Shown: positions 5,527 through 63,948 of the stretch, one piece after another
Layout: each line of letters starts with the position of its first letter
How positions within the stretch are numbered: position 1 is the first letter of the stretch
From: Candidatus Buchananbacteria bacterium RIFCSPHIGHO2_02_FULL_39_17
GTDB taxonomy: Bacteria; Patescibacteriota; Patescibacteriia; Buchananbacterales; UBA6539
DNA: 64,000 bases
Direction of reading: 5' to 3'
Assembly (NCBI GenBank): GCA_001817425.1
Contig: MHII01000012.1
Location: 77 to 64,076, forward strand
Made by a program: the position numbers and the translations under genes
Notes under the pieces: generated by a model
The model's database searches: none
What the model was told of the DNA's origin: nothing
What the model saw: the letters and a program-made list of their open reading frames with translations, nothing else

Positions 5527-5560
5527 CCGCCCAAGGCGGATCCGCCTCTGGCGGAGAGGA
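5527..5560. mobile_element. GC-rich double-hairpin element, family 2, flanked by an 11-bp direct repeat
   Basis: ccgcccaaggcggatccgcctctggcggagagga lies between two copies of tttgagatttt (5516-5526 and 5561-5571). Confidence 0.65.
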
Positions 5561-11866: not shown

Positions 11867-11961
11867 CCCTCTTAAGATAAGAGGGGAGAGGGGAGTTATG
11901 AGTGTAAGTTTTAAAAAATTAATAACCCCATCCACCTCCCCCTTAATTTAAGGGGGGAGAG
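11867..11961. mobile_element. MITE-like derivative (~95 bp) of the DUF559 element, with hairpin termini and no ORF
   Basis: The left end ccctcttaagataagaggggagaggggagttatgag and right end taaccccatccacctcccccttaatttaaggggggagag closely match the two ends of the DUF559 element at 61224-61656. Only ~20 bp lies between them here. Confidence 0.6.
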
Positions 11962-18180: not shown

Positions 18181-18497
18181 TGATAAAAATTTACCATAAA
18201 TTAGTTTGTGATAAGATTCCAGAGATTTGTAAAAAAGATGATGAAAAGCCGGTTTATTATGTTTTAAGCCAGAAAAGATTCAGAGAGGAATTAAAAAAGA
18301 AATTAATTGAAGAAACTGAAGAATTGACCCGAGCCAAGAAATCAGAATTAAAAAATGAAATTATTGATGTGTACGAAATTTTATTGAATTTAGCCAGAGT
18401 TAATCGCCTGAAATGGTCTACGATTGAAAAGCACCGTTTAGAAAAAAATAAACCCGACCTCAAAGCAAGCTTTGAGGTATCTGGGCGGGGTTTTTAG
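18180..18497 (+). CDS. MazG/HisE-like nucleoside triphosphate pyrophosphohydrolase
   Basis: N-terminal KLVCDKIPEI resembles the KLVRDKIPEI signature of MazG-like all-alpha NTP-PPases. The 3' end runs into a GC-rich hairpin element. Confidence 0.45.
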   Translation: MIKIYHKLVCDKIPEICKKDDEKPVYYVLSQKRFREELKKKLIEETEELTRAKKSELKNEIIDVYEILLNLARVNRLKWSTIEKHRLEKNKPDLKASFEVSGRGF

Positions 18498-18646
18498 GAG
18501 CAGAGTCCCGCCACGGCGGGACGTATTGTTTTACAAACTCTCCTCATCCTCGGTCGCTTTAGACGACCGAGATATTCGGAGAACACCTAATAAAAAACGA
18601 GGCGGATTTAGGAAACGTTATTTTTTGGAAAAAAGCCAAAAATAGT

Positions 18647-20341
18647 ATGGAGTTTATTTTAACCCCAGTGGAAATCTGGCAATTGGCAGTAATTAAACTG
18701 TTTTTTTATTTATTTTTGATTTTTGGCATCATTTTATTTTTTAAATGGCCTAAGCCATTTTTATTTGTTTTATTAATCTCTTTATTTTTGGGGGGCACTT
18801 ATTTATTTTTAATTTGGCAGGCGCAATTGCCTTGGTGGAGTTTGCAGGGGGATGAGATTTTTGTCACTTCGTTTCTCCAGAAGGTCGCTTCCGGCAATTT
18901 CTTTTCTGATTTTTTTTATAAAAATTTGCCGTTATTTTATCCGCCGCTTTATTTTTGGCTGGTTGGCGGCTTAGCCTCATTTTTTAAGTTAAACGGCATA
19001 CAAGCGGCGCAGTTGGGCGTGGCTTTAGTTTTATTTTTATCGCCATTTTTAGTTTATTTTTGCCAAAAAATTTACTGGCGGCTTTCCAAAAAAGAAGGCA
19101 TTCCGGCCTGGAAATTAGCCGTTTTGACCGCCTCGGTTTTTCTGGTTTGGGATTGGACGGCGGTGATTTTAAAACCTTATGAATTCATTTCGGCGATTTT
19201 AATTGTTTTTTGGTCAATTTTTTTATTCCAGGATTTATATTTTAAAACTTTATCGCGGCTAAAAATTATCATCTATGGTCTGGGCGGCGGGCTTTTATTT
19301 TTGACTTTCCATTTCTGGTTTTTTCCTTTGGCTTTAGCAATTTTATTATTTAAATTATTTGTTGATGTTTCACATCTTTATTTTTACAGCCGCCTGAGCT
19401 TGATTGTCCTTTTAATCTTAATCATTGCTTGGCCGTTTTTATACCCTTTGATTAATTCGCTTTGGCAAAACGGCGGACAGAATTTTCAGCCCTTATTTTT
19501 TATCCCCAGCGATTTAAATTTAAAATTGCCATTTTTTGATTTTTCCATTTTAGGTTTAATTTCAATTTTTGGTTTGCTTTCAATAATTTTTTATTGGTCA
19601 AAACCGGCGGCTAAGGCGATGGGCATTTTGCTTGGTTCAATATATTTTTGGCAATTTCTGAATTTAATCGGCATTATCTTTTGGCAGGTTTCCGTTTTGC
19701 CGGCAAAACCTTTTTTGTTTTTAGGTACGGTAGTTTTAGATCTTGCTTTTGGTTATGGCATTATTCAGTGGCTGGAATCAAAAGGCGAAAACAAAAATCT
19801 GCAGACAGCCGCTTTCATTATTGGCTGGTTAGTTTTGTCAAGTCAGCTTTTGGGTGGAAATTTTGTTGATGATCCAGTTGTCCAGAAACGTTTGGTTGAA
19901 ATAAAAAAACCAATTCGTGAGGAATTTACCGATTTAATTAGAGAGCTTAAAACCGTTTCTAATTTAAATAATTTGGTTTTACTTTCAAGCAATATTCCGG
20001 AGATTTCGGCTTATTTGCCCTTGAATTATTACCTTAGCTATAATATCCATTTTTCTCATCCGGCGGCGAATTTTATTGATCGCTATAATTTTGTCACTGA
20101 TTTAGCGGCCAGTCAGAGTCCGGATCAATTTTATCAAAAAATAAAAAAAGCGCCGTTTCAGCCAATTGATAATTTATTATTTTTAAAAGGCAATGGTTTT
20201 TATCCAATCAATTTTTGGTACGAAAACTATCCAACCGGCGGTATTGAGCAAGAAATTAGAATTCCGTCTGACTTGATTAGTGAACAATATTTTGCTAAAA
20301 TTTTTGAAGACAAATACTTTGTTTTTTATAAGGTAAAATAA
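18647..20341 (+). CDS. Large polytopic membrane protein, GT-C-like
   Basis: More than 10 TM helices, a GDE motif in the first loop (WWSLQGDEIFVTSF), and a C-terminal soluble domain. Confidence 0.4.
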   Translation: MEFILTPVEIWQLAVIKLFFYLFLIFGIILFFKWPKPFLFVLLISLFLGGTYLFLIWQAQLPWWSLQGDEIFVTSFLQKVASGNFFSDFFYKNLPLFYPPLYFWLVGGLASFFKLNGIQAAQLGVALVLFLSPFLVYFCQKIYWRLSKKEGIPAWKLAVLTASVFLVWDWTAVILKPYEFISAILIVFWSIFLFQDLYFKTLSRLKIIIYGLGGGLLFLTFHFWFFPLALAILLFKLFVDVSHLYFYSRLSLIVLLILIIAWPFLYPLINSLWQNGGQNFQPLFFIPSDLNLKLPFFDFSILGLISIFGLLSIIFYWSKPAAKAMGILLGSIYFWQFLNLIGIIFWQVSVLPAKPFLFLGTVVLDLAFGYGIIQWLESKGENKNLQTAAFIIGWLVLSSQLLGGNFVDDPVVQKRLVEIKKPIREEFTDLIRELKTVSNLNNLVLLSSNIPEISAYLPLNYYLSYNIHFSHPAANFIDRYNFVTDLAASQSPDQFYQKIKKAPFQPIDNLLFLKGNGFYPINFWYENYPTGGIEQEIRIPSDLISEQYFAKIFEDKYFVFYKVK

Positions 20342-20428
20342 GTCAAAAATCAAAAATCAAAAGGCAAAAGTCAAAAGTTTAAGTCAAAATTCAAAAGCTG
20401 TAGTTTAATTACTTTTAACTTTTGAATT
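20342..20428. repeat. Partial copy of the caaaag-rich ~100-bp intergenic repeat that also flanks rmlA
   Basis: caaaaggcaaaagtcaaaag...acttttaacttttgaatt matches the start and end of the 22957-23059 arm. It ends ~6 bp before the HIT-gene ATG. Confidence 0.55.
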
Positions 20429-20431
20429 AAT

Positions 20432-21866: not shown

Positions 21867-22098
21867 AGATGATCAGTGATTTTAAAATAAAGTTGAGTTA
21901 CAAAGTAATCAAATAAATTAGAATTTTTAATTTTGATTTCCCGCAATTACGGGATCCTCGATTTTTCATCCCGCCACGGCGGGGGAAAAATCGGGACAAT
22001 TTTGAATATTAAAATATTGAATTATTCAATCAAAATTCTGATTTAAAAATTCAAAATTATTTAAACTTTAATCAGATAAAAAATTATTATCCTTATTT

Positions 22099-22953: not shown

Positions 22954-22956
22954 AAG

Positions 22957-23059
22957 TCAAAAGGCAAAAGTCAAAATTGCAATTCAAAATTCAAAAGTAA
23001 AAAGTAATAATTTTGATTTTTAACTTGAACTTTTAATTTTTAACTTTTAACTTTTGAAT
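22957..23059. repeat. Left arm of the 103-bp inverted repeat enclosing rmlA
   Basis: Its reverse complement matches 23824-23926 at 102 of 103 positions. Built from caaaag/acttttaa units. Confidence 0.85.
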
Positions 23060-23064
23060 TTTTT

Positions 23065-23781: not shown

Positions 23782-23823
23782 TTTTTCAAGCACCAAATCC
23801 AAAATCACAAGCTCCAAATAATA

Positions 23824-23926
23824 ATTCAAAAGTTAAAAGTTAAAAATTAAAAGTTCAAGTTAAAAGTCAAAATTATTACTTTTTACTTTTGAATTTTGAA
23901 TTGCAATTTTGACTTTTGCCTTTTGA
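23824..23926. repeat. Right arm of the 103-bp inverted repeat enclosing rmlA
   Basis: Reverse complement of 22957-23059 with one mismatch. Confidence 0.85.
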
Positions 23927-23983
23927 ATTTTAACTTTGATGCTTATTTATAATTTGGAATTTATTTGAGATTTAATATTTCAA

Positions 23984-31497: not shown

Positions 31498-31545
31498 CTC
31501 CCCCTTAAATTAAGGGGGGGGGTGAGAGGGGGTTAAATTTCAAAA
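31498..31545. repeat. Hairpin element related to the DUF559-element termini
   Basis: ctcccccttaaattaaggggggg followed by gagagggggtta, cf. 11936-11959 and 61634-61656. Confidence 0.5.
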
Positions 31546-35659: not shown

Positions 35660-35865
35660 ATTTTTACATTTTTTTTAATTTTAAAAGTGAATAAAGTTTC
35701 GGTGGGCAGGGCATCAGACCCTGCCCACCGACCAAAGGAGTATCCTCCTTTGGAATCCTCTTATGATTAGTGTTCGCTCGCTACCGCTCGCTCACAGATT
35801 TTATTATTGACTCCGCCTCATCCCTGCGGCAGAGACCGCAGGGTATTCGGCGGATTTGCATAATA

Positions 35866-35903
35866 AAATAAGCGAAGTCTTTATCCTTCGCTTATTTTAT
35901 TAT
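35866..35903. terminator. Bidirectional terminator hairpin in the convergent gap
   Basis: aaataagcgaag-tctttatc-cttcgcttattt stem-loop, with T-runs on both sides. Confidence 0.5.
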
Positions 35904-38397: not shown

Positions 38398-38485
38398 AGG
38401 TTAAATTTTATTTCAATTATCTAAAATTATACCAATTAATTTATATCGCGGCAAATTTTAACGCCTGTATCCTAAATTCCTAACT

Positions 38486-38516
38486 CTCCGCCAGAGGCGG
38501 ACTCGCCTCTGGCGAG
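38486..38516. repeat. GC-rich double-hairpin element, family 2, inverted copy
   Basis: ctccgccagaggcggactcgcctctggcgag. Its reverse complement aligns with 5527-5560, sharing an identical second hairpin and a covarying first stem. Confidence 0.7.
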
Positions 38517-40398: not shown

Positions 40399-40856
40399 TA
40401 AAAATCAGAAATAGCTGAACTTAATTGGGTTGATTTTTCCGAGGTGCCAACTGTTGAGGGCCAAAAAACCGTTACCGTAATTTTTTTCAGTCCAGTATCG
40501 TTGGCGCTAACATTAAAATTACTGTCAAGATATTCAACAATTGTCTGTCTTTGAAAAGCGTAATAAAAATCAGTCGGATCACTTGATAATCTTTGTTTGG
40601 CTTCAATCGTGCCAGTGCTGATATTGTCGTAGCCTAGGCTGATGACTTCTTCAATTTTTGCCACGGCTAAATTAGAGGCGGTAGTTAATCTTTGGGCATC
40701 GCCGGTGATTTTCAAGCTTAAAGGGAAAATTTGAACCACGGCAAAAAGGCCAACCATTAAAATCATTGTGGCAATGGCCGCTTCAATAATGGTAAACCCC
40801 GCACTATGTTGGCGTAAGTTATTTTTGTCAATTTTTATAAATGATTTTTTAAACAT
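40398..40856 (-). CDS. Prepilin-type N-terminal cleavage/methylation domain protein (pseudopilin)
   Basis: RQHSAGFTIIEAAIATMILMVGLFAVVQIF. Confidence 0.65.
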   Translation of the reverse strand: MFKKSFIKIDKNNLRQHSAGFTIIEAAIATMILMVGLFAVVQIFPLSLKITGDAQRLTTASNLAVAKIEEVISLGYDNISTGTIEAKQRLSSDPTDFYYAFQRQTIVEYLDSNFNVSANDTGLKKITVTVFWPSTVGTSEKSTQLSSAISDF

Positions 40857-40922
40857 TACTATTTTTTTGATTATTCTTTATGAATTTTGGTATCTACTGA
40901 ATTAACGCCAACATAGTGCGGG
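40797..40922. repeat. Long-range inverted repeat around the start of prepilin gene 40398-40856
   Basis: ccccgcactatgttggcg (40797-40814, codes RQHSAG) and cgccaacatagtgcgggg (40905-40922) are an 18-bp perfect inverted repeat. The 90-bp spacer contains the ATG. Confidence 0.8.
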
Positions 40923-40936
40923 GTAAACCCTTGTTT

Positions 40937-41419
40937 TTAATCAATAACTTCAACATAGCCTGATGGTTTGATGTTTATCGTGGATATTTGACTTCTGGTG
41001 TTAGTCAAGGTAATTGAGCCGGTTTCCGCCACCCCGCCTGTCGGATTGAAACTGACTAAATCATTAGTCAGGCCAGAGATTTGACTGATGGAAACTTCAG
41101 TGTCTAAATTAACTTCTTTATTGACGTTACTGGTTTCCGAATTAACGATTTGATATTTTTTAGTTAGGGGAAAGAGTTTGAGCTGATAAATTTTTTGTTC
41201 CGTGACAGCTAATTGCTGGGTAAGCCGTAAATTGGTGGCTAAGACCCGAGCCTCACTTTTTAATTTGGTGTTTTTTTGGTAGTTGACAAAAAGCGGGGCG
41301 CTAATAATTGAAATAAAAGCGATAATACCTAAAACCGCAGCAAGCTCAGTAATCGTAAACCCCGCACTTTGTTGGCGTAGGTAATTTTTGTTTATTCTTT
41401 TGAAAATATTTTTAACTAT
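40937..41419 (-). CDS. Prepilin-type protein; reading frame intact but no ATG start (ATA at the aligned start position)
   Basis: Manual minus-strand translation gives IVKNIFKRINKNYLRQQSAGFTITELAAVLGIIAFISIISAPLF...GYVEVID*. It aligns codon for codon with MFKKSFIKIDKNNLRQHSAGFT of the neighbouring gene. It is absent from the ORF track because it lacks ATG. Confidence 0.45.
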   Translation of the reverse strand: MVKNIFKRINKNYLRQQSAGFTITELAAVLGIIAFISIISAPLFVNYQKNTKLKSEARVLATNLRLTQQLAVTEQKIYQLKLFPLTKKYQIVNSETSNVNKEVNLDTEVSISQISGLTNDLVSFNPTGGVAETGSITLTNTRSQISTINIKPSGYVEVID

Positions 41420-41486
41420 TTATCATTTATTAATTTATTTTTTGAACCTAAAATTTTGAGGAATAAATGCCAACATAGTGCGGGGT
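41360..41486. repeat. Long-range inverted repeat around the start of the prepilin reading frame 40937-41419
   Basis: ccccgcactttgttggc (41360-41376) against gccaacatagtgcgggg (41470-41486), 16 of 17 complementary. Spacer ~90 bp. Confidence 0.7.
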
Positions 41487-41533
41487 AAATCCTTTTTAAT
41501 TTATTTTGATCTATCGTCATTAAACTTTAACGC

Positions 41534-44408: not shown

Positions 44409-44847
44409 GGAGTGAGATTTTAGGGAAACTCAGGATTGATTGAGATTTTCTTGCTTCCATATTATACCATAATTTTAATTTTTGGAGAAATTCAAAGCCA
44501 TTTGTAGTTGGTAAGCGGTCTATTTGGGTGGACAAATTGCCAAATTATTATTATGATAGTATTATCAAGACTCATCAATATGCCCCGATATCGAGCATCG
44601 GGGCTGGTTAATCTTTTCGCGGCCGGAAAAGTACCTCGTCCCCGCCTGCCGCCCGCCCGTTTTTAACTTCGCCAAAGGCGAGTGGGGGCGGGTCACCTTA
44701 ACACATTTTTTAAGATTAAAATGGTTTAGCTGGGTTTAAATTTTAGTTTTATAATCCCCAATTAAACAGGCATTGGCGGGCAGGCTGCCCGCCGGATCTG
44801 CTAACTGGCGGAGAAGGCGGATTAAGATGGAAAAAAATTATTAAATT

Positions 44848-46271: not shown

Positions 46272-49007
46272 ATGAATAAAGAAGAAAGTAAAAAACAGAT
46301 TAAAAGGCTAGTGGAAAAATATCAAAATTTTACCCCAAGCCAAAAAAGAGAATGCAATGAATCAATGATTTGCAAAGATTTTGTTTTGCCTCTTTTTCAG
46401 GCGCTTGGCTGGGACGTTTATAATAATTTTGGCCACGAAGTGGCTTCGGAAGCGCAAATTTCAGGTAAAAGAGCCGATTATGCTTTTTATGTTAATGACG
46501 TGATAAAATTTTTTGTTGAAGCAAAAAAACCGTCGGTTGATTTACGGGAAGAAAAATTAGCCGAGCAGGCGGTATTTTATGCTTGGCACAAAAGCGTGCC
46601 TTGGGCAATATTGACGAATTTTGAAGTGATTAAAGTTTTTAACGCCGAATGGGACGAACCGGATGTGGAAAGAAGTCTAATTTTTGAAATCAATTACAAA
46701 GATTTTTTGCAAGACGAAAAATTGTGGTGGCTTTCCAAAGAATCAATGGAAAAAGGCGAGTTAGATCAATATGCGCAGGAAAATTTTAAAAAACCGAAAA
46801 GAGAACCAGTTGATAAGCAATTAGCTAACGATTTAGTCAGATGGCGGACAGCGTTATTTAGCGATCTTAGTCAATGGAATCGCGATAAAAATTTGGGTGA
46901 AAAAAATATTGCCAAGGCCGTCCAACAGTTATTGGACAGCTTTATTTTTATTCGCACGACTGAAGACAGAAAAATTGAAGGGGAACGGCTTCGGGAACTA
47001 GTCAGAAATTGGGAGGAAGAAAAAAAGACAATTAATTTAGGAGATGAGCTAAAAAAGTTATTCCAGCACTATAATGACGGTTATGATAGCAGATTATTTG
47101 AATTATCAGTCTGCGATAAATTGGAATATGAAGACAGCTTGTTTGCCGATGTAATCAAGCAACTATATAAAAATAAAAAAGGCATCCGTTATGATTTTGC
47201 GTCAATTAATGCTGATGTTTTAGGCAGTATTTACGAACAATATTTGGGACAAATTCAGGAAAGCGAAAAAAATAAAAGTAAAAGAAAATCTCAAGGGATT
47301 TATTATACGCCAAGATACATTGTTGATTATATTGTCAAAAATACTTTAGGCGAATTATTGAAAGGCAAGTCTGGCTTTGAGGCTTCAAAGATTAAAATAT
47401 TAGATCCGGCCTGCGGGTCAGGGTCATTTTTGATTAAAGCTTTTGAAGTTATAGATAATCATATTCAGAGAGAAAATAACCAGATAAACGCGCAAAAATT
47501 CACCAATTACGCCAGAAAGGTCGCGATTTTAACGGCAAATATCTATGGCGTTGACTTGGATGAAGAGGCCGTGGAAATTGCTCAATTAAATTTATTGCTA
47601 AAAGTTCTTGAACAAAGAGAGAAATTGCCAAATTTAGGACATAATATTGAAAACGGCAATTCTTTAATCTCTGGTGAACCAAAAGAATTGGAGAAATATT
47701 TTGGCAAGGGCTGGAAAGCCAAAAAGCCGTTTAACTGGGAAGAAAAATTTTCCGGTGTATTTAAGCAAGGCGGATTTGATGTGATTATTGGTAATCCGCC
47801 TTATATTGATTCGGAGGAGATGGTTAAAAATGATAAAAATTTTAGAATTTATTGCACTGAATTTTATGAAGGTGCTAAGGGGAATTGGGATATTTTTTGT
47901 ATATTTGTTGAAAAAGCATTAAACCTGTTGAGGGTAGGAGGTTATTTAGGAATGATTATTCCTAATAAGATACTATCTGCCGATTATGCTGATTCCGTTA
48001 GAAAAATGATAGAAGAATATTCAGTAGTTTCTATAAATGATTATTCAGGTATAAAAGTTTTTGGCGCCAGTGTCTATCCTATCGTTTTAATAATACAGAA
48101 ATTAAAACCTATACAAGATCATAAAATTATTGTCAATTCTTATACTATAGATAAGGAAGTTATTAAAATAGAGGATAGTAAAAAAATTAGTCAAACGATG
48201 CTGAAAGAATACAAAAATAGTTGGTCTCCTATATTTAATTATTCTGAGAATGAAAATTTTATTGATAGAATTACAAAAAGTAGTCAGAGATTAAAAGAAA
48301 TTTGTGATATTCACGGTGCCGCTACAGTAAATGAGGCCTATGAATTAAAAAAGATAGTCAAAAATTTAAAAGATGAAGATAAAGATGAATACTTTAAATT
48401 TATTAACACTGGAACTATTGATAGATATACCTCTCTGTGGGATCACCAAAAAACCCAATATATCAAAGCAAGCTATCTTAGGCCAGTAGTTATAAAGAAA
48501 AAATTACGTGAATTATTGCCTAACAGATATTTAGATTCAACAAAAAGTAAATTGATTGTAGCTGGTATGACAAAAAAGATGGAGTGTTTTTTTGACGAGC
48601 GTGGAGAATATTTAGCAGGTAAATCCACTACAATAATCGAAAACAATAAATTAGATCTTAAATTTATTTTAGCATTATTAAATAGTAAGTTGTTGACATT
48701 TATTTTTAAAAATATTTTTAAATCGCTATCTTTGCAAGGAGGGTATCTAAGGATAGGCGCCCCTCAAATTAAAGAGTTGCCAGTCATTATGGCGAATAAA
48801 AATGAAATGTCGGTAATTATAAAATTAACTGATAAAATTTTCATTTTAAACAAAAAATTTCAAACAATAGACCCTATTTTATACAAGGAAGAATATGAAG
48901 AAAAGAAAAAAGAAATTGAAAAAACCGACCGAGAAATTGACCAAAAAGTTTATGAGCTTTACGGCTTGATGGCGGAGGAGATTAAGATCGTGGAAGGAAA
49001 AAAATAA
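46272..49007 (+). CDS. MmeI-family type IIL/IIG restriction-modification enzyme (PD-ExK nuclease, gamma-class N6-adenine methyltransferase and TRD fused)
   Basis: The N-terminus ADYAFY...FVEAKKP gives a D-X10-E-X-K nuclease motif. Methyltransferase motif I is DPACGSGSFL and motif IV is GNPPY. Length is 911 aa; MmeI is about 919. The C-terminal half (~47850-48900) is visibly more AT-rich than the N-terminal half. Confidence 0.75.
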   Translation: MNKEESKKQIKRLVEKYQNFTPSQKRECNESMICKDFVLPLFQALGWDVYNNFGHEVASEAQISGKRADYAFYVNDVIKFFVEAKKPSVDLREEKLAEQAVFYAWHKSVPWAILTNFEVIKVFNAEWDEPDVERSLIFEINYKDFLQDEKLWWLSKESMEKGELDQYAQENFKKPKREPVDKQLANDLVRWRTALFSDLSQWNRDKNLGEKNIAKAVQQLLDSFIFIRTTEDRKIEGERLRELVRNWEEEKKTINLGDELKKLFQHYNDGYDSRLFELSVCDKLEYEDSLFADVIKQLYKNKKGIRYDFASINADVLGSIYEQYLGQIQESEKNKSKRKSQGIYYTPRYIVDYIVKNTLGELLKGKSGFEASKIKILDPACGSGSFLIKAFEVIDNHIQRENNQINAQKFTNYARKVAILTANIYGVDLDEEAVEIAQLNLLLKVLEQREKLPNLGHNIENGNSLISGEPKELEKYFGKGWKAKKPFNWEEKFSGVFKQGGFDVIIGNPPYIDSEEMVKNDKNFRIYCTEFYEGAKGNWDIFCIFVEKALNLLRVGGYLGMIIPNKILSADYADSVRKMIEEYSVVSINDYSGIKVFGASVYPIVLIIQKLKPIQDHKIIVNSYTIDKEVIKIEDSKKISQTMLKEYKNSWSPIFNYSENENFIDRITKSSQRLKEICDIHGAATVNEAYELKKIVKNLKDEDKDEYFKFINTGTIDRYTSLWDHQKTQYIKASYLRPVVIKKKLRELLPNRYLDSTKSKLIVAGMTKKMECFFDERGEYLAGKSTTIIENNKLDLKFILALLNSKLLTFIFKNIFKSLSLQGGYLRIGAPQIKELPVIMANKNEMSVIIKLTDKIFILNKKFQTIDPILYKEEYEEKKKEIEKTDREIDQKVYELYGLMAEEIKIVEGKK

Positions 49008-49596: not shown

Positions 49597-51111
49597 ATGA
49601 ATTTCACGGGTAGAAAAGTGACGGTCATGGGTTTAGGGCTCCACGGTGGTGGAGTCTCTTGCGCTAACTGGCTGATAAAGCACGGCGCTAAAGTGACGGT
49701 GACTGATTTGAAAACCAAAGAAGAGCTTAAGCCATCTTTAGATAAGTTAGCGATCAAACGATCAAGCGATCAAACGATCAAGTTAGTGCTTGGATATCAC
49801 CGTGAAAATGATTTTAGAAATGCTGATCTAATTGTTCAAAACCCGGGTGTGCCAAGGGAATCAAAATATTTGGCAATTGCCAAAAAATCTGGCGTGCCAA
49901 TTGAAAATGAAGCCAGCCTTTTTTTTAAATATTGTCCGGCAAAAATTATCGGCGTCACAGGAACGCGTGGCAAATCAACCACGTCAAGCTTAATTTATCA
50001 ACTTCTAAAAGTTAAAAGCTATCCCGACGTAAAGTCGGGATCCCGACCGAAGCGTCGGGACAAACTACAAGCTCGTAAAGTCTGGCTGGCCGGACTGCCC
50101 CAAAAGCCGATGTTAGAAATTTTAGATCAAATTAAGCCTAATGATTTGGTGGTTTTAGAGCTTTCCAGCTGGCAATTAGAAATTTTAGGCGAACAAAAAT
50201 TAAGTCCGCAAATCGCGGTTCTGACTAATATTTATCCCGATCATTTAAATCGCTATTTGGGTATGGCTGATTACGTTAAAGCTAAAATCAACATTTTTCA
50301 GTGGCAAAATAAAAATGATTTTGTCGTTTTGAATTTAGATAATTTTGAAACAAAAAAACTTGGCGGAAAAGTCAGGGCCAAAAGATTTTTGTTTTCCAAA
50401 AAATATTTTGCCGAACAAAACGGCAGCTTTATTAAAAATAAACAAATTTTTTTCCGAAAAGACGGCAAAACTTACAAACTTACTAACTTATCAACTTATA
50501 AACTTATTGGCGAGCACAATTTAGAAAATTTTTTGGCCGCGATCACGGTTGCCGGAATTTTTGGTGTTAAACCAAAAGAAATAACGGCGGCTTTGAATAA
50601 GTTTAAGGGTTTGCCGGGGCGAATTGAGTTAATCAGGGAAAAAAACGGCGTAAAATATATTAATGACACAACCGCGACCACGCCTGATGCCACCATGGCC
50701 GCTCTAAAAATATTTTTAGAGCGGCAAATCCCAAATTCTAAATCCCAAACCCTAAGTAAATTCAAAATTCAAAATTCAAGATTCAAAATTATTCTGATAG
50801 CTGGAGGAGCGTCAAAAAATATTCCTATTCAAAAATATCAAGAGTTAGCCGCAATGATAAAAAAAACTTGTAAGGCCGTGATTCTATTTGAGGGGGAAGG
50901 GAGCGATCAGATGGCCAAAGATTTAAAGGCCATAAAATTTAGAGAATTAGTGACCAATGTTTTAGGGATGTCTTCAGCGGTTGGCATTGCTAATAATTTT
51001 TCGCAAACAGGCGATATCATTTTACTCTCTCCGTCTTCAGCTTCGTTTGGTTTGTTTATTAATGAATTTGATCAGGGTGATCAATTTAATAAGATAGTTT
51101 CTGATATTTAA
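49597..51111 (+). CDS. murD: UDP-N-acetylmuramoylalanine--D-glutamate ligase
   Basis: KVTVMGLGLHGGGVSCANWL, the P-loop GVTGTRGKSTTSSL, and the Mur ligase C-domain. Three in-frame repeat insertions: 49745-49778, 50011-50071 and 50757-50793. Confidence 0.85.
   Translation: MNFTGRKVTVMGLGLHGGGVSCANWLIKHGAKVTVTDLKTKEELKPSLDKLAIKRSSDQTIKLVLGYHRENDFRNADLIVQNPGVPRESKYLAIAKKSGVPIENEASLFFKYCPAKIIGVTGTRGKSTTSSLIYQLLKVKSYPDVKSGSRPKRRDKLQARKVWLAGLPQKPMLEILDQIKPNDLVVLELSSWQLEILGEQKLSPQIAVLTNIYPDHLNRYLGMADYVKAKINIFQWQNKNDFVVLNLDNFETKKLGGKVRAKRFLFSKKYFAEQNGSFIKNKQIFFRKDGKTYKLTNLSTYKLIGEHNLENFLAAITVAGIFGVKPKEITAALNKFKGLPGRIELIREKNGVKYINDTTATTPDATMAALKIFLERQIPNSKSQTLSKFKIQNSRFKIILIAGGASKNIPIQKYQELAAMIKKTCKAVILFEGEGSDQMAKDLKAIKFRELVTNVLGMSSAVGIANNFSQTGDIILLSPSSASFGLFINEFDQGDQFNKIVSDI
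50011..50071. mobile_element. GC-rich double-hairpin element, family 1, inserted in frame in murD
   Basis: aaaagctatcccgacgtaaagtcgggatcccgaccgaagcgtcgggacaaactacaagct has two hairpins sharing the tcccgac/gtcggga stem and ctacaagct at its edges. It encodes KSYPDVKSGSRPKRRDKLQA, which is absent from canonical MurD. Confidence 0.7.
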
Positions 51112-53442: not shown

Positions 53443-53628
53443 TCAAATTAAACGGGAAGAAATAGAAGATAACTAAAATAGATTAAAAAATTCCAAATTC
53501 TAAATCCTAAATTATAAATAATATTAAAATTCAAATTTACAAATTTAAAAAAGTTTTATTCGTTTGGATTTTAGTTATTGGGATTTATTTAGGATTTAGT
53601 GCTTAGAATTTAGGATTTATCTTTATTT
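53443..53628. repeat. AT-rich palindromic element (ctaaatcc-unit inverted repeats) upstream of the patatin gene
   Basis: aattctaaatcctaaa...tttaggatttagtgcttagaatttaggattta. Shares its 3' ~30 bp with the element at 54538-54678. Both end ~5 bp before an ATG. Confidence 0.7.
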
Positions 53629-54537: not shown

Positions 54538-54678
54538 CTTAAAATTCTAAATTCTAAATCCGAAATCCTAAACAAATTCCAAATTCTAAACTCCAATTTT
54601 TTAAACAGTTTGTAATTTGTGATTTTGGATATTGTGATTTACTTAGAATTTAGTGCTTAGAATTTAGGATTTAATATT
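54538..54678. repeat. AT-rich palindromic element upstream of murC, paralogous to 53443-53628
   Basis: aaattctaaattctaaatccgaaatcctaaa...cttagaatttagtgcttagaatttaggattta. Confidence 0.7.
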
Positions 54679-61249: not shown

Positions 61250-61656
61250 GGGAGTTATGAAGTATAATTATCATTATAATAACCATAAATTAAAAACTTT
61301 AAGACGAAACTTACGACAGAACCAAACTGATGCCAAAAAATTAATTTGGTCAAAACTTAGGAATAAACAATTAAATGATTTGAAATTTTATAGACAATAC
61401 AGTATTGGCTCGTATATTTTAGATTTTTATTGTCCTAAAAAGAGATTAGCGATAGAGATTGACGGCGGACAGCATAACGAAACAATTAATCTAAAAAAAG
61501 ATAATGTGCGATCAGAATATTTAAAACATCAGGACGTTAAGGTTATAAGATTTTAGAATAATGATATTATAAATAATTTAGAAGGAGTATTTGAAAAAAT
61601 TAAAGAAGCAGTATCGTTAATAACCCCCTCCATCTCCCCCTTATATTAAGGGGGAG
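61224..61656 (+). mobile_element. Mini mobile element with hairpin termini carrying a DUF559 (Vsr-like endonuclease-fold) gene
   Basis: The left end cccctcttaaaggtaagaggggttaggggagttATG and right end taaccccctccatctcccccttatattaagggggag are palindromic. The same two ends occur back to back at 11867-11961 without the ORF. Confidence 0.6.
61257..61649 (+). pseudogene. DUF559 endonuclease-domain gene interrupted by an in-frame TAG at the conserved RFW motif
   Basis: YRQYSIGSYILDFYCPKKRLAIEIDGGQHNE...DVKVIRF*NNDIINNLEGVFEKIKEAVSL. DUF559 proteins normally read RFWN followed by a tail, so TAG replaces the Trp codon. Confidence 0.55.
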
Positions 61657-62958: not shown

Positions 62959-63948
62959 ATGCCTGAATTACCGGAAGTGGAAACTCTACGCCGCGAATTA
63001 AATTCAGCGATTAAAGGTAAAACCATTAAATCAGCAGAAATCAAATGGCCGAAAATGGTTAAGCCATTAACGCCGCTTGAGTTTGCCAAAAAAATAAAAG
63101 GCAAAAAAATCACGGCTATTAATCGCCGCGCCAAGGTTTTGATTTTATTTTTATCTGATGGTAATTTTTTACTCATCCATTTGAAACTCACAGGCCAACT
63201 CATTTATCAACCTAAAAAGCTACAAGCTATCCCGACGTTGCCGATGCGAAGATCGGCATTCCGACTTTACGTCGGAACAAGTCGGGATCCCGACCGAAGC
63301 GTCGGGACAAGCTATAAGCTAATCATCGGTGGTCACCCGCTTCCGCTTCGCTTCAGCGAGGCGAGTCCGCAAAAAGGCGGCACCGAAAATCTGCCCAATA
63401 AATTTACTCATATTATTATTACTTTTAACGATAGTTCAAAATTATTTTTTAATGATTTGCGAAAATTTGGCTGGATGCGGATAGTTAATAAGTTAGAAGT
63501 TGATAAGTTGTTAAGTGAGTACGGGGTTGAGCCTTTGACAAAAGAATTTAATTTGAAAAAATTTAAAGAAATATTAAAGAGATATCCGAACCGGAAAATT
63601 AAGCAGATTTTAATGGACCAAAGTTTAATCGCCGGGATTGGCAATATTTATTGCGACGAAAGTTGTTTTGGCGCGAAAATCTTGCCCACCAGAATCATTC
63701 AAACTTTAAAGGAAGAAGAAATTAAATTACTTTATCGCTGTATCCCAAAACTTTTAAAATTTGCCATTTCAAAAAAAGGTACATCAGCCAATACTTATAT
63801 CCAGCTTGACGGTAAGCCAGGCGGTATGGAGCCATATTTAAAAGTTTACGCTCGAAAAGGGGAGAAGTGCAAAAGGTGCGCCGGTGAAATTAAGAGAATT
63901 AAATTAAACGGCCGCGGCACTCATTTTTGTCCAAATTGCCAAAAATAA
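62959..63948 (+). CDS. mutM: Formamidopyrimidine-DNA glycosylase (Fpg/MutM)
   Basis: N-terminal MPELPEVE with the catalytic Pro2 and Glu3, an H2TH region, and a C-terminal zinc finger CKRC...CPNC. Carries ~170 bp of in-frame GC-rich palindromic insertions at 63216-63385. Confidence 0.85.
   Translation: MPELPEVETLRRELNSAIKGKTIKSAEIKWPKMVKPLTPLEFAKKIKGKKITAINRRAKVLILFLSDGNFLLIHLKLTGQLIYQPKKLQAIPTLPMRRSAFRLYVGTSRDPDRSVGTSYKLIIGGHPLPLRFSEASPQKGGTENLPNKFTHIIITFNDSSKLFFNDLRKFGWMRIVNKLEVDKLLSEYGVEPLTKEFNLKKFKEILKRYPNRKIKQILMDQSLIAGIGNIYCDESCFGAKILPTRIIQTLKEEEIKLLYRCIPKLLKFAISKKGTSANTYIQLDGKPGGMEPYLKVYARKGEKCKRCAGEIKRIKLNGRGTHFCPNCQK
63216..63320. mobile_element. GC-rich hairpin element, family 1, expanded copy, inserted in frame in fpg
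   Basis: aaaagctacaagctatcccgacg...gtcgggatcccgaccgaagcgtcgggacaagctataagct. Its 3' 40 bp are nearly identical to the murD copy and its edges carry ctacaagct. Confidence 0.7.
63349..63385. repeat. Family-2-like double hairpin inside the fpg coding sequence
   Basis: cgcttcagcgaggcgagtccgcaaaaaggcgg follows the ggcgag-tccgcNNNNNggcgg layout of 38486-38516 and 5527-5560. Confidence 0.5.

What the first reader, a model, noticed from the sequence alone, without database searches (positions are those of the whole stretch)
18497..18600. GC-rich hairpin element family with conserved flanks and covarying stems (cctcatcc – 8-bp hairpin – tattcgg); candidate structured RNA or REP family
At 18532-18570 the layout is cctcatcc-tcggtcg-cttta-gacgaccga-gatattcggag. 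At 35808-35846 it is cctcatcc-ctgcgg-cagaga-ccgcagg-gtattcggcgg. The flanks are identical and the stem sequences are completely different, yet both stems are perfectly paired.

Both copies are preceded by another strong hairpin: gtcccgccacggcgggac at 18505-18522, and ggtgggcagggcatcagaccctgcccacc plus ccaaaggag-tatc-ctcctttgg at 35700-35765. Both are followed by ggcggattt. A further cccgccacggcggg copy lies in a nested 9+6-bp hairpin at 21944-21990, after rmlB.

These are islands of high GC in AT-rich spacers. They could be an uncharacterised small RNA, protein-binding REP-type elements, or unusually elaborate terminators.
Basis: seen in the sequence. Interest (0 to 1): 0.5.

Follow-up and report, generated by a model that had tools for sequence, protein, structure and literature searches.

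The report
Structured mobile repeat in CPR genome
The two GC-rich hairpins are the 3' ends of two copies of a ~150-190-nt non-coding, multi-hairpin repeat that inserts at AATAAA sites, has many copies in candidate-phyla-radiation and other uncultured bacteria, keeps its fold through compensatory mutations, and matches no catalogued RNA family.

Summary
CCTCATCC–hairpin–TATTCGG occurs twice (18542-18579, 35816-35850), against 0 expected by chance.

Each hairpin is the 3' module of a larger element:
- W2, 35685-35867.
- W1, 18447-18594, a diverged copy.

Scans and a covariance model found about 36 distinct insertion loci. They lie in Rifle-aquifer CPR contigs, other Patescibacteria, a Firestonebacteria MAG (4 copies) and one circular 2.9-Mb MAG (4 copies).

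The fold has a variable hairpin P1, a near-invariant hairpin P2, and a three-way junction. In the model-fitted alignment 97% of pair cells are paired, and 37 of 46 pairs show double-sided changes.

W1 sits inside a gene. The host C-terminus continues intact after the element, and AATAAA is present at both junctions. Syntenic loci of relatives lack both copies.

There is no Rfam, plasmid or phage match, no conserved ORF and no linked transposase.

Best reading: an undescribed, non-autonomous, site-specific mobile element whose single-stranded fold is under selection. The strand, the nucleic acid (RNA or ssDNA) and the enzyme are unresolved.

The parts
35685..35867 (+). W2: full-length 'type A' copy.
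   Evidence: CM R1 hit at 35684-35867, 224 bits, E 1e-57. It is 97-99% identical to copies at 10 or more loci with unrelated flanks.
35699..35731 (+). W2 P1: 13-bp GC-rich hairpin whose sequence varies across the family. On the - strand it is followed by AACTTTATTC, which looks like a terminator.
   Evidence: All 13 P1 pairs show double-sided changes. Terminator-like on the - strand.
35732..35753 (+). W2 P2: CCAAAGGAG-TATC-CTCCTTTGG. Near-invariant in types A/B/C and in copies from other phyla.
   Evidence: The genome scan used a 19-mer from P2, so part of this invariance comes from how the copies were found.
35754..35760 (+). W2 conserved single-stranded AATCCTC (GAGGATT on the - strand).
   Evidence: It lies outside the scanned 19-mer yet is identical in all 11 true genome hits.
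35761..35765 (+). W2 Pc, 5' strand (TTATG) of the long-range closing helix.
   Evidence: Pairs with 35859-35863. RNAalifold result and per-pair counts.
35770..35795 (+). W2 P3: weak, interrupted hairpin, longer in type B.
   Evidence: helices 5 and 6.
35812..35854 (+). Outer stem P4 TCCGCC/GGCGGA; internal loop TCAT / TATTC; inner stem P5 CCCTGCGG/CCGCAGGG; loop CAGAGA.
35859..35867 (+). W2 Pc 3' strand (CATAA, 35859-35863), overlapping the terminal AATAAA (35862-35867).
   Evidence: All copies diverge from one another immediately after AATAAA.
35868..35903 (.). Host bidirectional terminator hairpin abutting W2. Context only, not part of the element.
   Evidence: The relative L092 has only a plain bidirectional terminator in a 48-nt spacer at the syntenic junction.
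18447..18594 (+). W1: diverged 'type E' copy lacking P1. 18447-18452 is the left AATAAA, host codons N-K. The inserted DNA is 18453-18594 (142 nt), ending in AATAAA.
   Evidence: CM R1 with filters off: 18438-18594, 21 bits, E 4e-4 over the whole window. 79% identical to L034/L062 at a different locus. Junctions.
18458..18477 (+). W1 hairpin CCTCAAAG-CAAG-CTTTGAGG, aligned to P2 and followed by the conserved TATC.
   Evidence: alignment.
18494..18498 (+). W1 Pc 5' strand (TTAGG). It pairs with CCTAA at 18586-18590.
   Evidence: This is a compensatory version of W2's TTATG/CATAA.
18505..18522 (+).
   Evidence: Terminator-like on the + strand.
18539..18582 (+). P4 TCTCC/GGAGA; loop TCATC / ATATTC; P5 CTCGGTCG/CGACCGAG; loop CTTTAGA.
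18586..18594 (+). W1 Pc 3' strand (CCTAA, 18586-18590) and the right-hand AATAAA (18589-18594).
18595..18645 (+). Displaced 3' end of the interrupted host gene (K R G G F R K R Y F L E K S Q K stop).
   Evidence: Colinear with the C-termini of the L013 and L011 orthologues.

Best explanation
The two hairpins are the 3'-terminal two-stem module of two diverged copies (W1 18447-18594, W2 35685-35867) of a dispersed, non-coding repeat family of about 150-210 nt.

Shown:
- The family is multi-copy within single genomes and has sharp ends.
- It lands at or next to AATAAA (TTTATT), usually within a few nt of stop codons or terminators, in either orientation. In W1 it landed inside a coding sequence.
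- It is absent from the syntenic sites of relatives.
- Its helices are kept by compensatory changes. The helices are P1, P2, and a three-way junction closed by a 5-bp long-range helix, Pc, that ends 4 nt from the element's end and holds P3 and the P4/P5 module.

Inferred: it is a non-autonomous, site-specific mobile element. Its single-stranded form must adopt this fold to be recognised and processed by an enzyme encoded elsewhere in the genome. The conserved unpaired nucleotides (the UCAUC/UAUUC loop, AAUCCUC) and P2 would be the contact or guide sites. Pc would position the right-end junction.

I lean, weakly (about 60:40), towards a single-stranded-DNA route of the IS200/IS605 'peel-and-paste' type over an RNA intermediate. 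The element has no inverted terminal repeats. It inserts 3' of a fixed short motif, and its own end carries the same motif. Any effect on neighbouring genes, such as extra terminator-like hairpins or truncation of the W1 host gene, would be a by-product.
For: Family and copy number:
- Metagenome pattern scan: 31 matches at 22 distinct CPR loci.
- Genome scan with a P2 19-mer: 4 copies in one circular 2.9-Mb MAG, 4 in a Firestonebacteria MAG, plus Parcubacteria, Buchananbacteria, Patescibacteria and WWE3.
- Type A copies are 97-99% identical with unrelated flanks.
- A strain contig breaks 12 nt into W2.

Insertion:
- The W1 host gene continues in frame after the element, with AATAAA at both junctions.
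- Relatives have 4-80-nt spacers at the W1 site and a plain terminator at the W2 site.
- All 5 type B left flanks end in AATAAA. In two of them it contains the host stop codon.

Fold:
- RNAalifold consensus, including Pc.
- 23 diverse members: 96.9% of cells paired against 81% in shuffles. 37 of 46 pairs have double-sided changes. Slid controls give about 45%.
- A MAFFT-only alignment of 16 3' modules: 85% paired against 66% in shuffles, and 12 of 13 pairs with double changes.
- Pc versions in a fixed register: UUAUG/CAUAA, UUGUG/CACAA, UUGCC/GGCAA, UUUUG/CAAAA, UUUUC/GAAAA, UCGGA/UCCGA, UUAGG/CCUAA, GCGUG/CACGU, UAAUGU/AUAUUA.

Non-autonomous:
- No conserved ORF (reading).
- No recurrent neighbouring protein.
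- Neighbours are housekeeping genes.

Orientation relative to genes is mixed.
Against: - No transposase, reverse transcriptase or nuclease was linked to any copy. Only about 400 kb around copies was seen, never a whole genome.
- Type A, Firestonebacteria and MFD copies begin with a conserved AGTG(AA) upstream of or instead of AATAAA. They show no target duplication, so one simple insertion rule does not fit all subfamilies.
- A global fold with a long-range helix and an invariant P2 is more typical of a functional RNA than of IS200/IS605 ends.
- Orientation relative to GC skew is 12:14 overall. A bias appears only in the Rifle subset (about 12:3), so the replication-strand bias expected for ssDNA transposons is not established.
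- G.U versus A.C counts (14:10) do not identify a folding strand.
- The covariation counts come from an alignment fitted to the model.
- MAG binning errors could inflate the phylum range.
Confidence: 0.5

Rival explanations
1. A host-serving structured small RNA, trans-acting or a cis module in UTRs, that became multi-copy. It would be transcribed from the strand complementary to the reader's. On that strand the RNA has purine-rich loops (GAAUA/AUGA and GAGGAUU). P2 carries a sequestered AAAGGAGG Shine-Dalgarno-like box. The RNA ends in P1 plus UUUAUU acting as its own intrinsic terminator.
For: - On the - strand, unpaired nucleotides are A 41%, G 19%, U 28%, C 12%, which is typical of structured RNAs. 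On the + strand they are U 37%, A 33%, C 22%, G 7%.
- The MFE is lower on the - strand in 18 of 23 members, mean -71.5 against -66.1 kcal/mol.
- P1 on the - strand is flagged as terminator-like. So is the last hairpin of W1 on the - strand.
- In co-directional gene pairs, the - strand is the sense strand in 7 of 9 cases.
- P2 and AAUCCUC are conserved across phyla.
Against: - No conserved promoter: flanks diverge immediately at both ends.
- Both window copies have the + strand in the mRNA sense. On the - strand W2 lies behind a strong terminator.
- Near-identical copies at unrelated loci, an insertion that truncates a gene, and absence from relatives are the behaviour of selfish DNA.
- Orientation relative to genes is mixed.
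Confidence: 0.2
2. A mobile RNA: a retroelement-like or ribozyme-like element that spreads through an RNA intermediate. Examples would be target-primed reverse transcription at TTTATT/AATAAA, or reverse-splicing-like insertion. The conserved fold would be the recognition or catalytic core.
For: - Multi-helix fold with a long-range closing helix, and highly conserved junction and loop nucleotides.
- All subfamilies share the 3' module plus an A-rich tail, while their 5' domains differ (types A-F). This resembles partner-dependent SINE/LINE 3' ends.
- 6-bp AATAAA at both W1 junctions.
- A few solo 3' fragments exist (L024 14100-14148, L047 8749-8782).
- Many copies sit right after terminator hairpins on the - strand, reminiscent of class C group II intron targets.
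Against: - No reverse transcriptase nearby.
- No match to any ribozyme or intron model in Rfam, even at E up to 10.
- Solo 5' fragments are as frequent as solo 3' fragments.
- The hammerhead, hairpin-ribozyme, group II domain V and K-turn signatures I checked by eye do not fit.
- Hairpins next to the ends occur on both sides, as expected for any short intergenic spacer.
Confidence: 0.15
3. Elaborate transcription terminators, or REP-like mRNA-stabilising or protein-binding hairpins, retained for host gene expression.
For: - Location in intergenic spacers next to stop codons.
- Terminator-like hairpins inside the element: P1 on the - strand and W1 P3 on the + strand.
- GC-rich palindromes in an AT-rich genome.
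Against:
- W2 is followed by a separate host terminator.
- Relatives manage with a simple hairpin at the same junction.
- A terminator role would not account for the conserved internal loop, P2, or the long-range helix with covariation.
- W1 interrupts a gene.
Confidence: 0.08

Closest known systems
IS200/IS605-derived non-autonomous elements (PATEs) and the TnpB omega-RNA encoded at their right end
   Same: No terminal inverted repeats. No classical target duplication. Insertion 3' of a fixed short motif, with a similar motif at the element's own right end. Hairpins near both ends. A structured segment that stops a few nt from the right boundary. Small size and multiple copies.
   Different: No TnpA or TnpB was found near any copy. 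There is no Rfam IS605-type or HEARO match. The long-range helix and invariant P2 have no described counterpart. Replication-strand bias is not established. Type A, Firestonebacteria and MFD left ends do not abut AATAAA.
Bacterial MITE-like repeats that fold as RNA (Neisseria Correia, pneumococcal BOX/RUP, enterobacterial ERIC)
   Same: 100-200-nt, non-coding, multi-copy, intergenic, modular, often co-transcribed with neighbours and able to form stable structures.
   Different: Those have terminal inverted repeats, or are long imperfect palindromes, and are confined to a genus or family. This element has no TIRs. Its helices are kept by compensatory change. Its core is conserved across phyla.
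REP / BIME / REPIN elements mobilised by RAYT transposases
   Different: REPs are single 20-40-nt palindromes with a conserved GTAG-type head. Here the hairpin is one module of a 150-210-nt multi-helix unit, has no GTAG, and no RAYT was seen.
Rickettsia palindromic elements (RPEs)
   Same: Small structured repeats in reduced genomes that can land inside coding sequences.
   Different: RPEs insert in frame and are translated. W1 brings a stop codon and cuts off the host C-terminus. The separate small-hairpin repeats inside fpg in this window look more RPE-like.
Orphan multi-copy structured RNA motifs in Rfam (e.g. Acido-Lenti-1, Dictyoglomi-1, Bacteroidales-1)
   Same: Covariation-supported folds, several copies per genome, no known function. 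(The resemblance is from my own knowledge of those families.)
   Different: None of the 4227 Rfam 15 models matches. This family also has demonstrable insertion junctions.

Membership tests
Any Rfam 15 family | Score at or above the family's gathering threshold | tested here: not met
   0 hits in the window. Only tRNAs in 12 related loci. In E-value mode only sub-threshold noise: DUF805 23.6 against 51 bits, traJ_5, STnc240, His_leader, mir-1789.
   P4/P5 was not reported at either copy. Other helices do qualify: W2 P1 on the - strand and W1 P3 on the + strand.
MITE | Terminal inverted repeats | tested here: not met
   The first ~25 nt and the reverse complement of the last ~25 nt show no similarity in types A, B or E (reading).
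MITE | Target-site duplication of fixed length | tested here: inconclusive
   AATAAA lies at both W1 junctions and flanks types B and E. The sequence is always the same, and types A and Firestonebacteria show none.
MITE | Small, non-coding, multi-copy, with unrelated flanks | tested here: met
IS200/IS605-type non-autonomous element (PATE) | Insertion 3' of a short fixed sequence, without TIRs | tested here: inconclusive
   Fits W1, L034 and all 5 type B copies. Does not fit type A, Firestonebacteria or MFD left flanks.
IS200/IS605-type non-autonomous element (PATE) | Subterminal hairpins at both ends | tested here: inconclusive
   P1 near the left end and P4/P5 13 nt from the right end in types A/B/C. 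W1 lacks P1.
IS200/IS605-type non-autonomous element (PATE) | Autonomous partner (tnpA/tnpB) with the same ends in the genome | not testable with these tools
   None among neighbours within 2.5 kb of 30 copies. Whole genomes were not available.
IS200/IS605-type non-autonomous element (PATE) | Orientation bias relative to replication | tested here: inconclusive
   GC-skew sign on the element strand is 12 positive to 14 negative overall. It is about 3:12 in the Rifle subset.
REP/REPIN | Single 20-40-nt imperfect palindrome with a conserved tetranucleotide head; RAYT in the genome | tested here: not met
   The unit is 150-210 nt with 5-6 helices. No GTAG head. RAYT presence could not be tested.
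Integron attC | R''/R' boxes (RYYYAAC ... GTTRRRY) at the base of the folded site | tested here: not met
   The outer stems are TCCGCC/GGCGGA and TCTCC/GGAGA, with no AAC/GTT core.
Group II intron (incl. class C, terminator-targeting) | Six-domain fold with domain V; GUGYG 5' end and AY 3' end | tested here: not met
   No Intron_gpII hit. The element is only about 190 nt. No hairpin has an AGC triad or a 2-nt bulge (by reading).
Rickettsia-type palindromic element | In-frame insertion that is translated with the host protein | tested here: not met
   W1 introduces TAG at 18495-18497 and displaces the last 16 host codons.
Type I toxin-antitoxin / small-ORF locus | Conserved short ORF downstream of the sequestered Shine-Dalgarno box | tested here: not met
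   Candidate ORFs on either strand are not conserved between types A, B, MFD and Firestonebacteria (reading).

The most novel reading that the evidence does not exclude
The conserved fold is itself the active agent of a new kind of mobile element. The fold comprises the three-way junction closed next to the element's end, the invariant P2 and AAUCCUC, and the UCAUC/UAUUC loop. It could be a ribozyme-like RNA or ssDNA that recognises AAUAAA/TTTATT by base pairing and helps catalyse its own insertion. Alternatively it could be a guide-RNA scaffold for a trans-encoded nuclease or recombinase, shared by CPR bacteria and unrelated phyla.
Probability: 0.12. Interest if true: 0.9.

Novelty: new variant of a known kind. 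Interest (0 to 1): 0.62.

Why it matters
CPR/Patescibacteria genomes are tiny and are usually described as poor in mobile DNA. Here roughly ten or more copies per genome of a structure-constrained, site-specific insertion element appear. The same core occurs in a Firestonebacteria MAG and in an unrelated 2.9-Mb genome.

If confirmed, three things follow:
- It adds a well-supported orphan fold to the catalogue of bacterial structured nucleic acids, with more than 35 examples and a long-range helix with many compensatory versions.
- It points to an unidentified trans-acting enzyme with AATAAA specificity.
- It has practical consequences for annotation. The element truncates genes (W1), creates false ORF extensions, adds terminator-like hairpins and breaks metagenome assemblies (L090).

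Tried and rejected
- **Rfam.** Gathering and permissive E-value searches of the window and related loci found nothing. The weak DUF805 hit (18571-18656) mostly covers the host-gene remnant.
- **Annotated collections.** blastn against plasmids and phages found no match. A scan of viral contigs for the P2 19-mer gave 0.
- **Literature.** Sequence-string and keyword searches found nothing relevant.
- **Protein-based locus search.** A genome-contig search with the neighbouring glycosyltransferase gave no relatives.
- **More copies in the window.** A regex structural scan and the covariance model with filters off found only W1 and W2. The 21.9-kb hairpin is not a member.
- **Structural motifs checked by eye and rejected.** K-turn, sarcin-ricin/loop E, 11-nt tetraloop receptor, hammerhead core, hairpin-ribozyme loops, group II domain V, attC R boxes.
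- **Other features rejected.** Terminal inverted repeats. Small conserved ORFs on either strand, including a type I toxin. An internal sigma-70 promoter: the -10-like CATAAT at the end covaries as helix Pc.
- **Strand call from wobble pairs.** G.U 14 against A.C 10, uninformative.
- **Replication-strand bias.** 12:14.
- **Recurrent neighbour protein or transposase.** None.
- **Preference for abutting terminator hairpins.** Seen at about 8 of 26 right ends but also at left ends, so not specific.
- **Possible tertiary pairings.** Loop UAUUC with the 5' GAAUA, and UCAU with AUGA, were not consistently supported across subfamilies.
Full report
**1. The observation**

The motif CCTCATCC–N(10-35)–TATTCGG occurs twice in the window, at 18542-18579 and 35816-35850 on the + strand. 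None was found in 100 shuffles.

Folding shows two stacked helices separated by a conserved internal loop, not a single hairpin.
- Copy 1: TCTCC / UCAUC / CTCGGTCG–loop–CGACCGAG / AUAUUC / GGAGA.
- Copy 2: TCCGCC / UCAU / CCCTGCGG–loop–CCGCAGGG / UAUUC / GGCGGA.

Folding z-scores are -4 to -6 on either strand. Both stems differ between the copies and stay paired. CCCGCCACGGCGGG occurs at 18507 and 21970.

**2. Genomic setting**

The window is from a Rifle-aquifer CPR MAG (GCA_001817295.1, contig MHIB01000037.1) close to Candidatus Buchananbacteria. GC content is about 36%.
- Copy 1 lies between a small ORF and an AftA_N-type glycosyltransferase in an rml/glycosyltransferase cluster.
- Copy 2 lies between a C39-like peptidase gene and the convergent end of a pilM-N-O operon.

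Ten contigs of the same population are identical across copy 1.

**3. The hairpin is the 3' module of a larger multi-copy element**

A metagenome scan with ACTC-N(1-2)-CCTCATCC-N(14-30)-TATTCGGNG returned 59 stretches.
- 31 matches, at 22 distinct loci, are in CPR-type contigs. Their middle segment forms a hairpin.
- The rest are unrelated sequences with no hairpin, about the number expected by chance.

Aligning the flanks showed that copy 2 is part of a 183-nt unit ('type A'). The unit is 97-99% identical at 10 or more loci whose flanks are unrelated. Similarity starts at AGTGAATAAAG and ends at GCAKAATAAA. Further subfamilies (B, C, D, E, F) share the architecture but have different stems. 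Copy 1 belongs to type E, together with L034/L062, which are 79% identical and at another locus.

A genome scan with a 19-mer from the invariant hairpin P2 found true copies in several lineages:
- 4 in one circular 2.9-Mb MAG (OZ218778.1);
- 4 in a Firestonebacteria MAG;
- single copies in Parcubacteria, Buchananbacteria and Patescibacteria MAGs, and a partial one in WWE3.

Three other hits look like chance or coding matches. The loci differ widely in GC (38-55%). This argues against simple mis-binning, though MAG contamination cannot be excluded.

**4. The fold**

RNAalifold on nine CPR copies predicted the following:
- P1, a variable GC hairpin.
- P2, CCAAAGGAG-UAUC-CUCCUUUGG.
- Single-stranded AAUCCUC.
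- Pc, a long-range helix between the 5 nt after AAUCCUC and the 5 nt before the terminal UAAA.
- P3, and the P4/P5 module, both inside the junction that Pc closes.

A covariance model built from this alignment (R1) gave these results:
- It scores W2 at 224 bits.
- With filters off, it scores W1 at 21 bits over its full length (E 4e-4 for the whole window). P1 is deleted in W1, and the hairpin 18458-18477 stands in the place of P2.
- It finds no other member in the window.

On 23 diverse members aligned to the model:
- 96.9% of pair cells are standard pairs, against 81% in shuffles and about 45% when partners are slid.
- 37 of 46 pairs have double-sided changes.

That alignment is fitted to the structure. 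I therefore repeated the count for P4/P5 on a plain MAFFT alignment of 16 3' modules. There 85% of cells are paired against 66% in shuffles, and 12 of 13 pairs show double changes.

Pc is read in a fixed register: immediately after AAUCCUC, and immediately before UAAA. At least nine complementary versions exist: UUAUG/CAUAA, UUGUG/CACAA, UUGCC/GGCAA, UUUUG/CAAAA, UUUUC/GAAAA, UCGGA/UCCGA, UUAGG/CCUAA (W1), GCGUG/CACGU and UAAUGU/AUAUUA.

The four copies in the single circular MAG already differ by compensatory changes in P1.

Two ascertainment caveats apply:
- P2 invariance in the genome set is partly by construction, because the scan used a P2 19-mer.
- Loop invariance in the metagenome set is likewise partly by construction.

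Each set does confirm the other's motif independently. The genome set shows (U)CAUC(C)…UNUUC. Metagenome types A-C show P2.

**5. It is an insertion**

W1. The small ORF upstream of W1 aligns with its orthologues in L011 and L013 up to …E-K-N-K and then diverges. Directly after the element, the window reads AAA CGA GGC GGA TTT AGG AAA CGT TAT TTT TTG GAA AAA AGC CAA AAA TAG. This translates to K R G G F R K R Y F L E K S Q K stop. It is colinear with K R G S F R K R Y F L V… of the orthologues.
- So 142 nt (18453-18594) were inserted into the coding sequence at GAAAAAAATAAA^AAACGAGG.
- AATAAA is now present at both junctions.
- Relatives with conserved synteny have only 4-80 nt at this position and no element in about 57 kb.

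W2. A Buchananbacteria relative has a 48-nt spacer with a plain bidirectional terminator at the corresponding convergent junction. A 99%-identical strain contig ends 12 nt into the element, as expected for a repeat.

Other subfamilies.
- All five type B copies have AATAAA immediately left of the element. In two it contains the host stop codon.
- Several copies lie 5-8 nt from the stop codon of a gene on the other strand.
- Type A, Firestonebacteria and MFD copies instead begin with a conserved AGTG(AA) and show no duplication. The insertion rule is therefore not uniform.

**6. What it is not**
- No Rfam family matches, even permissively.
- No match in plasmids, phages or viral contigs.
- No terminal inverted repeats and no conserved ORF.
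- No recurrent neighbouring protein. Neighbours are housekeeping genes such as recA, dnaA, topoisomerase, EF-G and mreB.
- P4/P5 is not terminator-like, although other helices are: W2 P1 on the - strand and W1 P3 on the + strand.
- Orientation relative to flanking genes is mixed. Orientation relative to GC skew is 12:14.

**7. Which strand, RNA or DNA?**

Wobble counts do not decide the strand: G.U 14 against A.C 10.

- Its unpaired positions are A/G-rich.
- It folds better in 18 of 23 members.
- Its internal loop reads GAAUA/AUGA, with possible G.A pairs.
- It ends in P1 plus UUUAUU.

No promoter is conserved on either strand. I therefore leave the strand open.

**8. Interpretation**

Shown: a dispersed, sharply bounded, non-coding insertion element with a fold maintained by compensatory evolution.

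Inferred: it is non-autonomous, and its folded single strand is the substrate of a trans-encoded enzyme.

The combination of features resembles IS200/IS605-derived elements most closely. Those features are the absence of TIRs, a fixed short motif on the left flank repeated at the element's right end, hairpins near the ends, and a structured segment ending a few nt from the boundary. I could not test for the partner genes, and the long-range helix and P2 have no described counterpart there.

Rival readings, with my probabilities:
- host sRNA, 0.2;
- mobile RNA or retroelement, 0.15;
- terminator or REP-like hairpins, 0.08.

**9. Verdict**

The element appears undescribed in Rfam 15 and in the searchable literature. 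I rate it a new variant of a known kind (small non-autonomous structured repeats), interest 0.62. There is about a 0.12 chance that it represents a new mechanism.

Noticed in passing
window 21952-21999 (also L034 9835-9880, L024 13649-13693): A separate 46-nt near-perfect hairpin repeat, CCTCGATTTTTCATCCCGCCACGGCGGGGGAAAAATCGGGAC. It is about 95% identical at three unrelated loci. Its core, CCCGCCACGGCGGG, equals P3 of W1. It sits in a 232-nt rmlB-rmlD spacer that relatives lack.
   Followed up: partly
window 63222-63390 (inside fpg ORF 62959-63948) and 50021-50075 (inside murD-like ORF 49597-51111): Strings of short GC hairpins (e.g. TCCCGAC-GTAAA-GTCGGGA-TCCCGAC-CGAAGC-GTCGGGAC) lie inside coding sequences. 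In Fpg the N-terminal Pfam domain spans 173 residues for 117 profile positions, which suggests an in-frame insertion of about 56 aa, like Rickettsia palindromic elements. The same hairpins recur in L022, L024, L030, L054 and L071.
   Followed up: partly
window 11919-11956, 31498-31519, 61617-61654: A family of CTCCCCCTTAA-N-TTAAGGGGGAG hairpins in intergenic spacers. They are terminator-like and mutually similar (89-100% over 19-38 nt).
   Followed up: no
window 5541-5558 and 38484-38512: Twin hairpins CCGCCAGAGGCGG / CGCCTCTGGCG, sharing an identical 18-mer in opposite orientation. Related GGGATCCCGCC…CCGCCAGAGGCGG strings occur in L022 and L024.
   Followed up: no
window 40787-41533: A 677-nt apparently non-coding stretch in the pilus cluster. 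It is bounded by 26-nt direct repeats (GCCAACATAGTGCGGGGTAAA…, 40907-40932 and 41469-41494) and also has inverted and 42-nt repeats. The GGTGCGGGGTAA motif also flanks elements in L020/L030. It may be a decayed gene or another repeat family.
   Followed up: no
window 44409-44847: A 439-nt GC-rich (42%), heavily hairpinned divergent intergenic region between pilB and the mraY cluster. 80 nt of it is 84% similar to L071 10239-10316. There is no Rfam hit. It may hold another unannotated structured RNA.
   Followed up: no
window 20342-20431, 22954-23064, 23782-23983, 53443-53628, 54538-54678: AT-rich spacers built from short degenerate repeats (AAAAGTCAAAAG…, TTCTAAATCC…). They are often arranged as long AT-only inverted repeats, and they contrast with the GC-rich hairpin families.
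   Followed up: no
L013 11734-12024 and L091 960-1268 (relatives of the window): Small Avd-like ORFs (PF05635 23S_rRNA_IVP / bAvd) are inserted at two syntenic positions in a related Buchananbacteria genome but are absent from the window. They may be remnants of diversity-generating retroelements.
   Followed up: no
L024 11105-11257; L035 8656-8739 (-); L019 11178-11330 (-); L027 1180-1325: Truncated, chimeric or divergent relatives of the element. Examples: a 5' half fused to a different terminator-like hairpin with a C(UUCG)G loop on the - strand; a mini version joining the 5' end to the GGGGUAUUC loop; a type D/E-like copy with outer stem UUGGCC/GGCCAG. They suggest modular recombination among copies.
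   Followed up: partly
L047 vs L058, and L062 vs L034/L054: Contigs that are 99.9% identical up to the exact end of an element and then diverge. This indicates either recombination between copies or assembly chimeras at the repeat.
   Followed up: no
window 46272-49007: A 911-aa Eco57I/MmeI-like type IIG restriction-modification gene and a NYN-domain gene are embedded in the cell-division/cell-wall (mraY-murD-ftsW) cluster.
   Followed up: no
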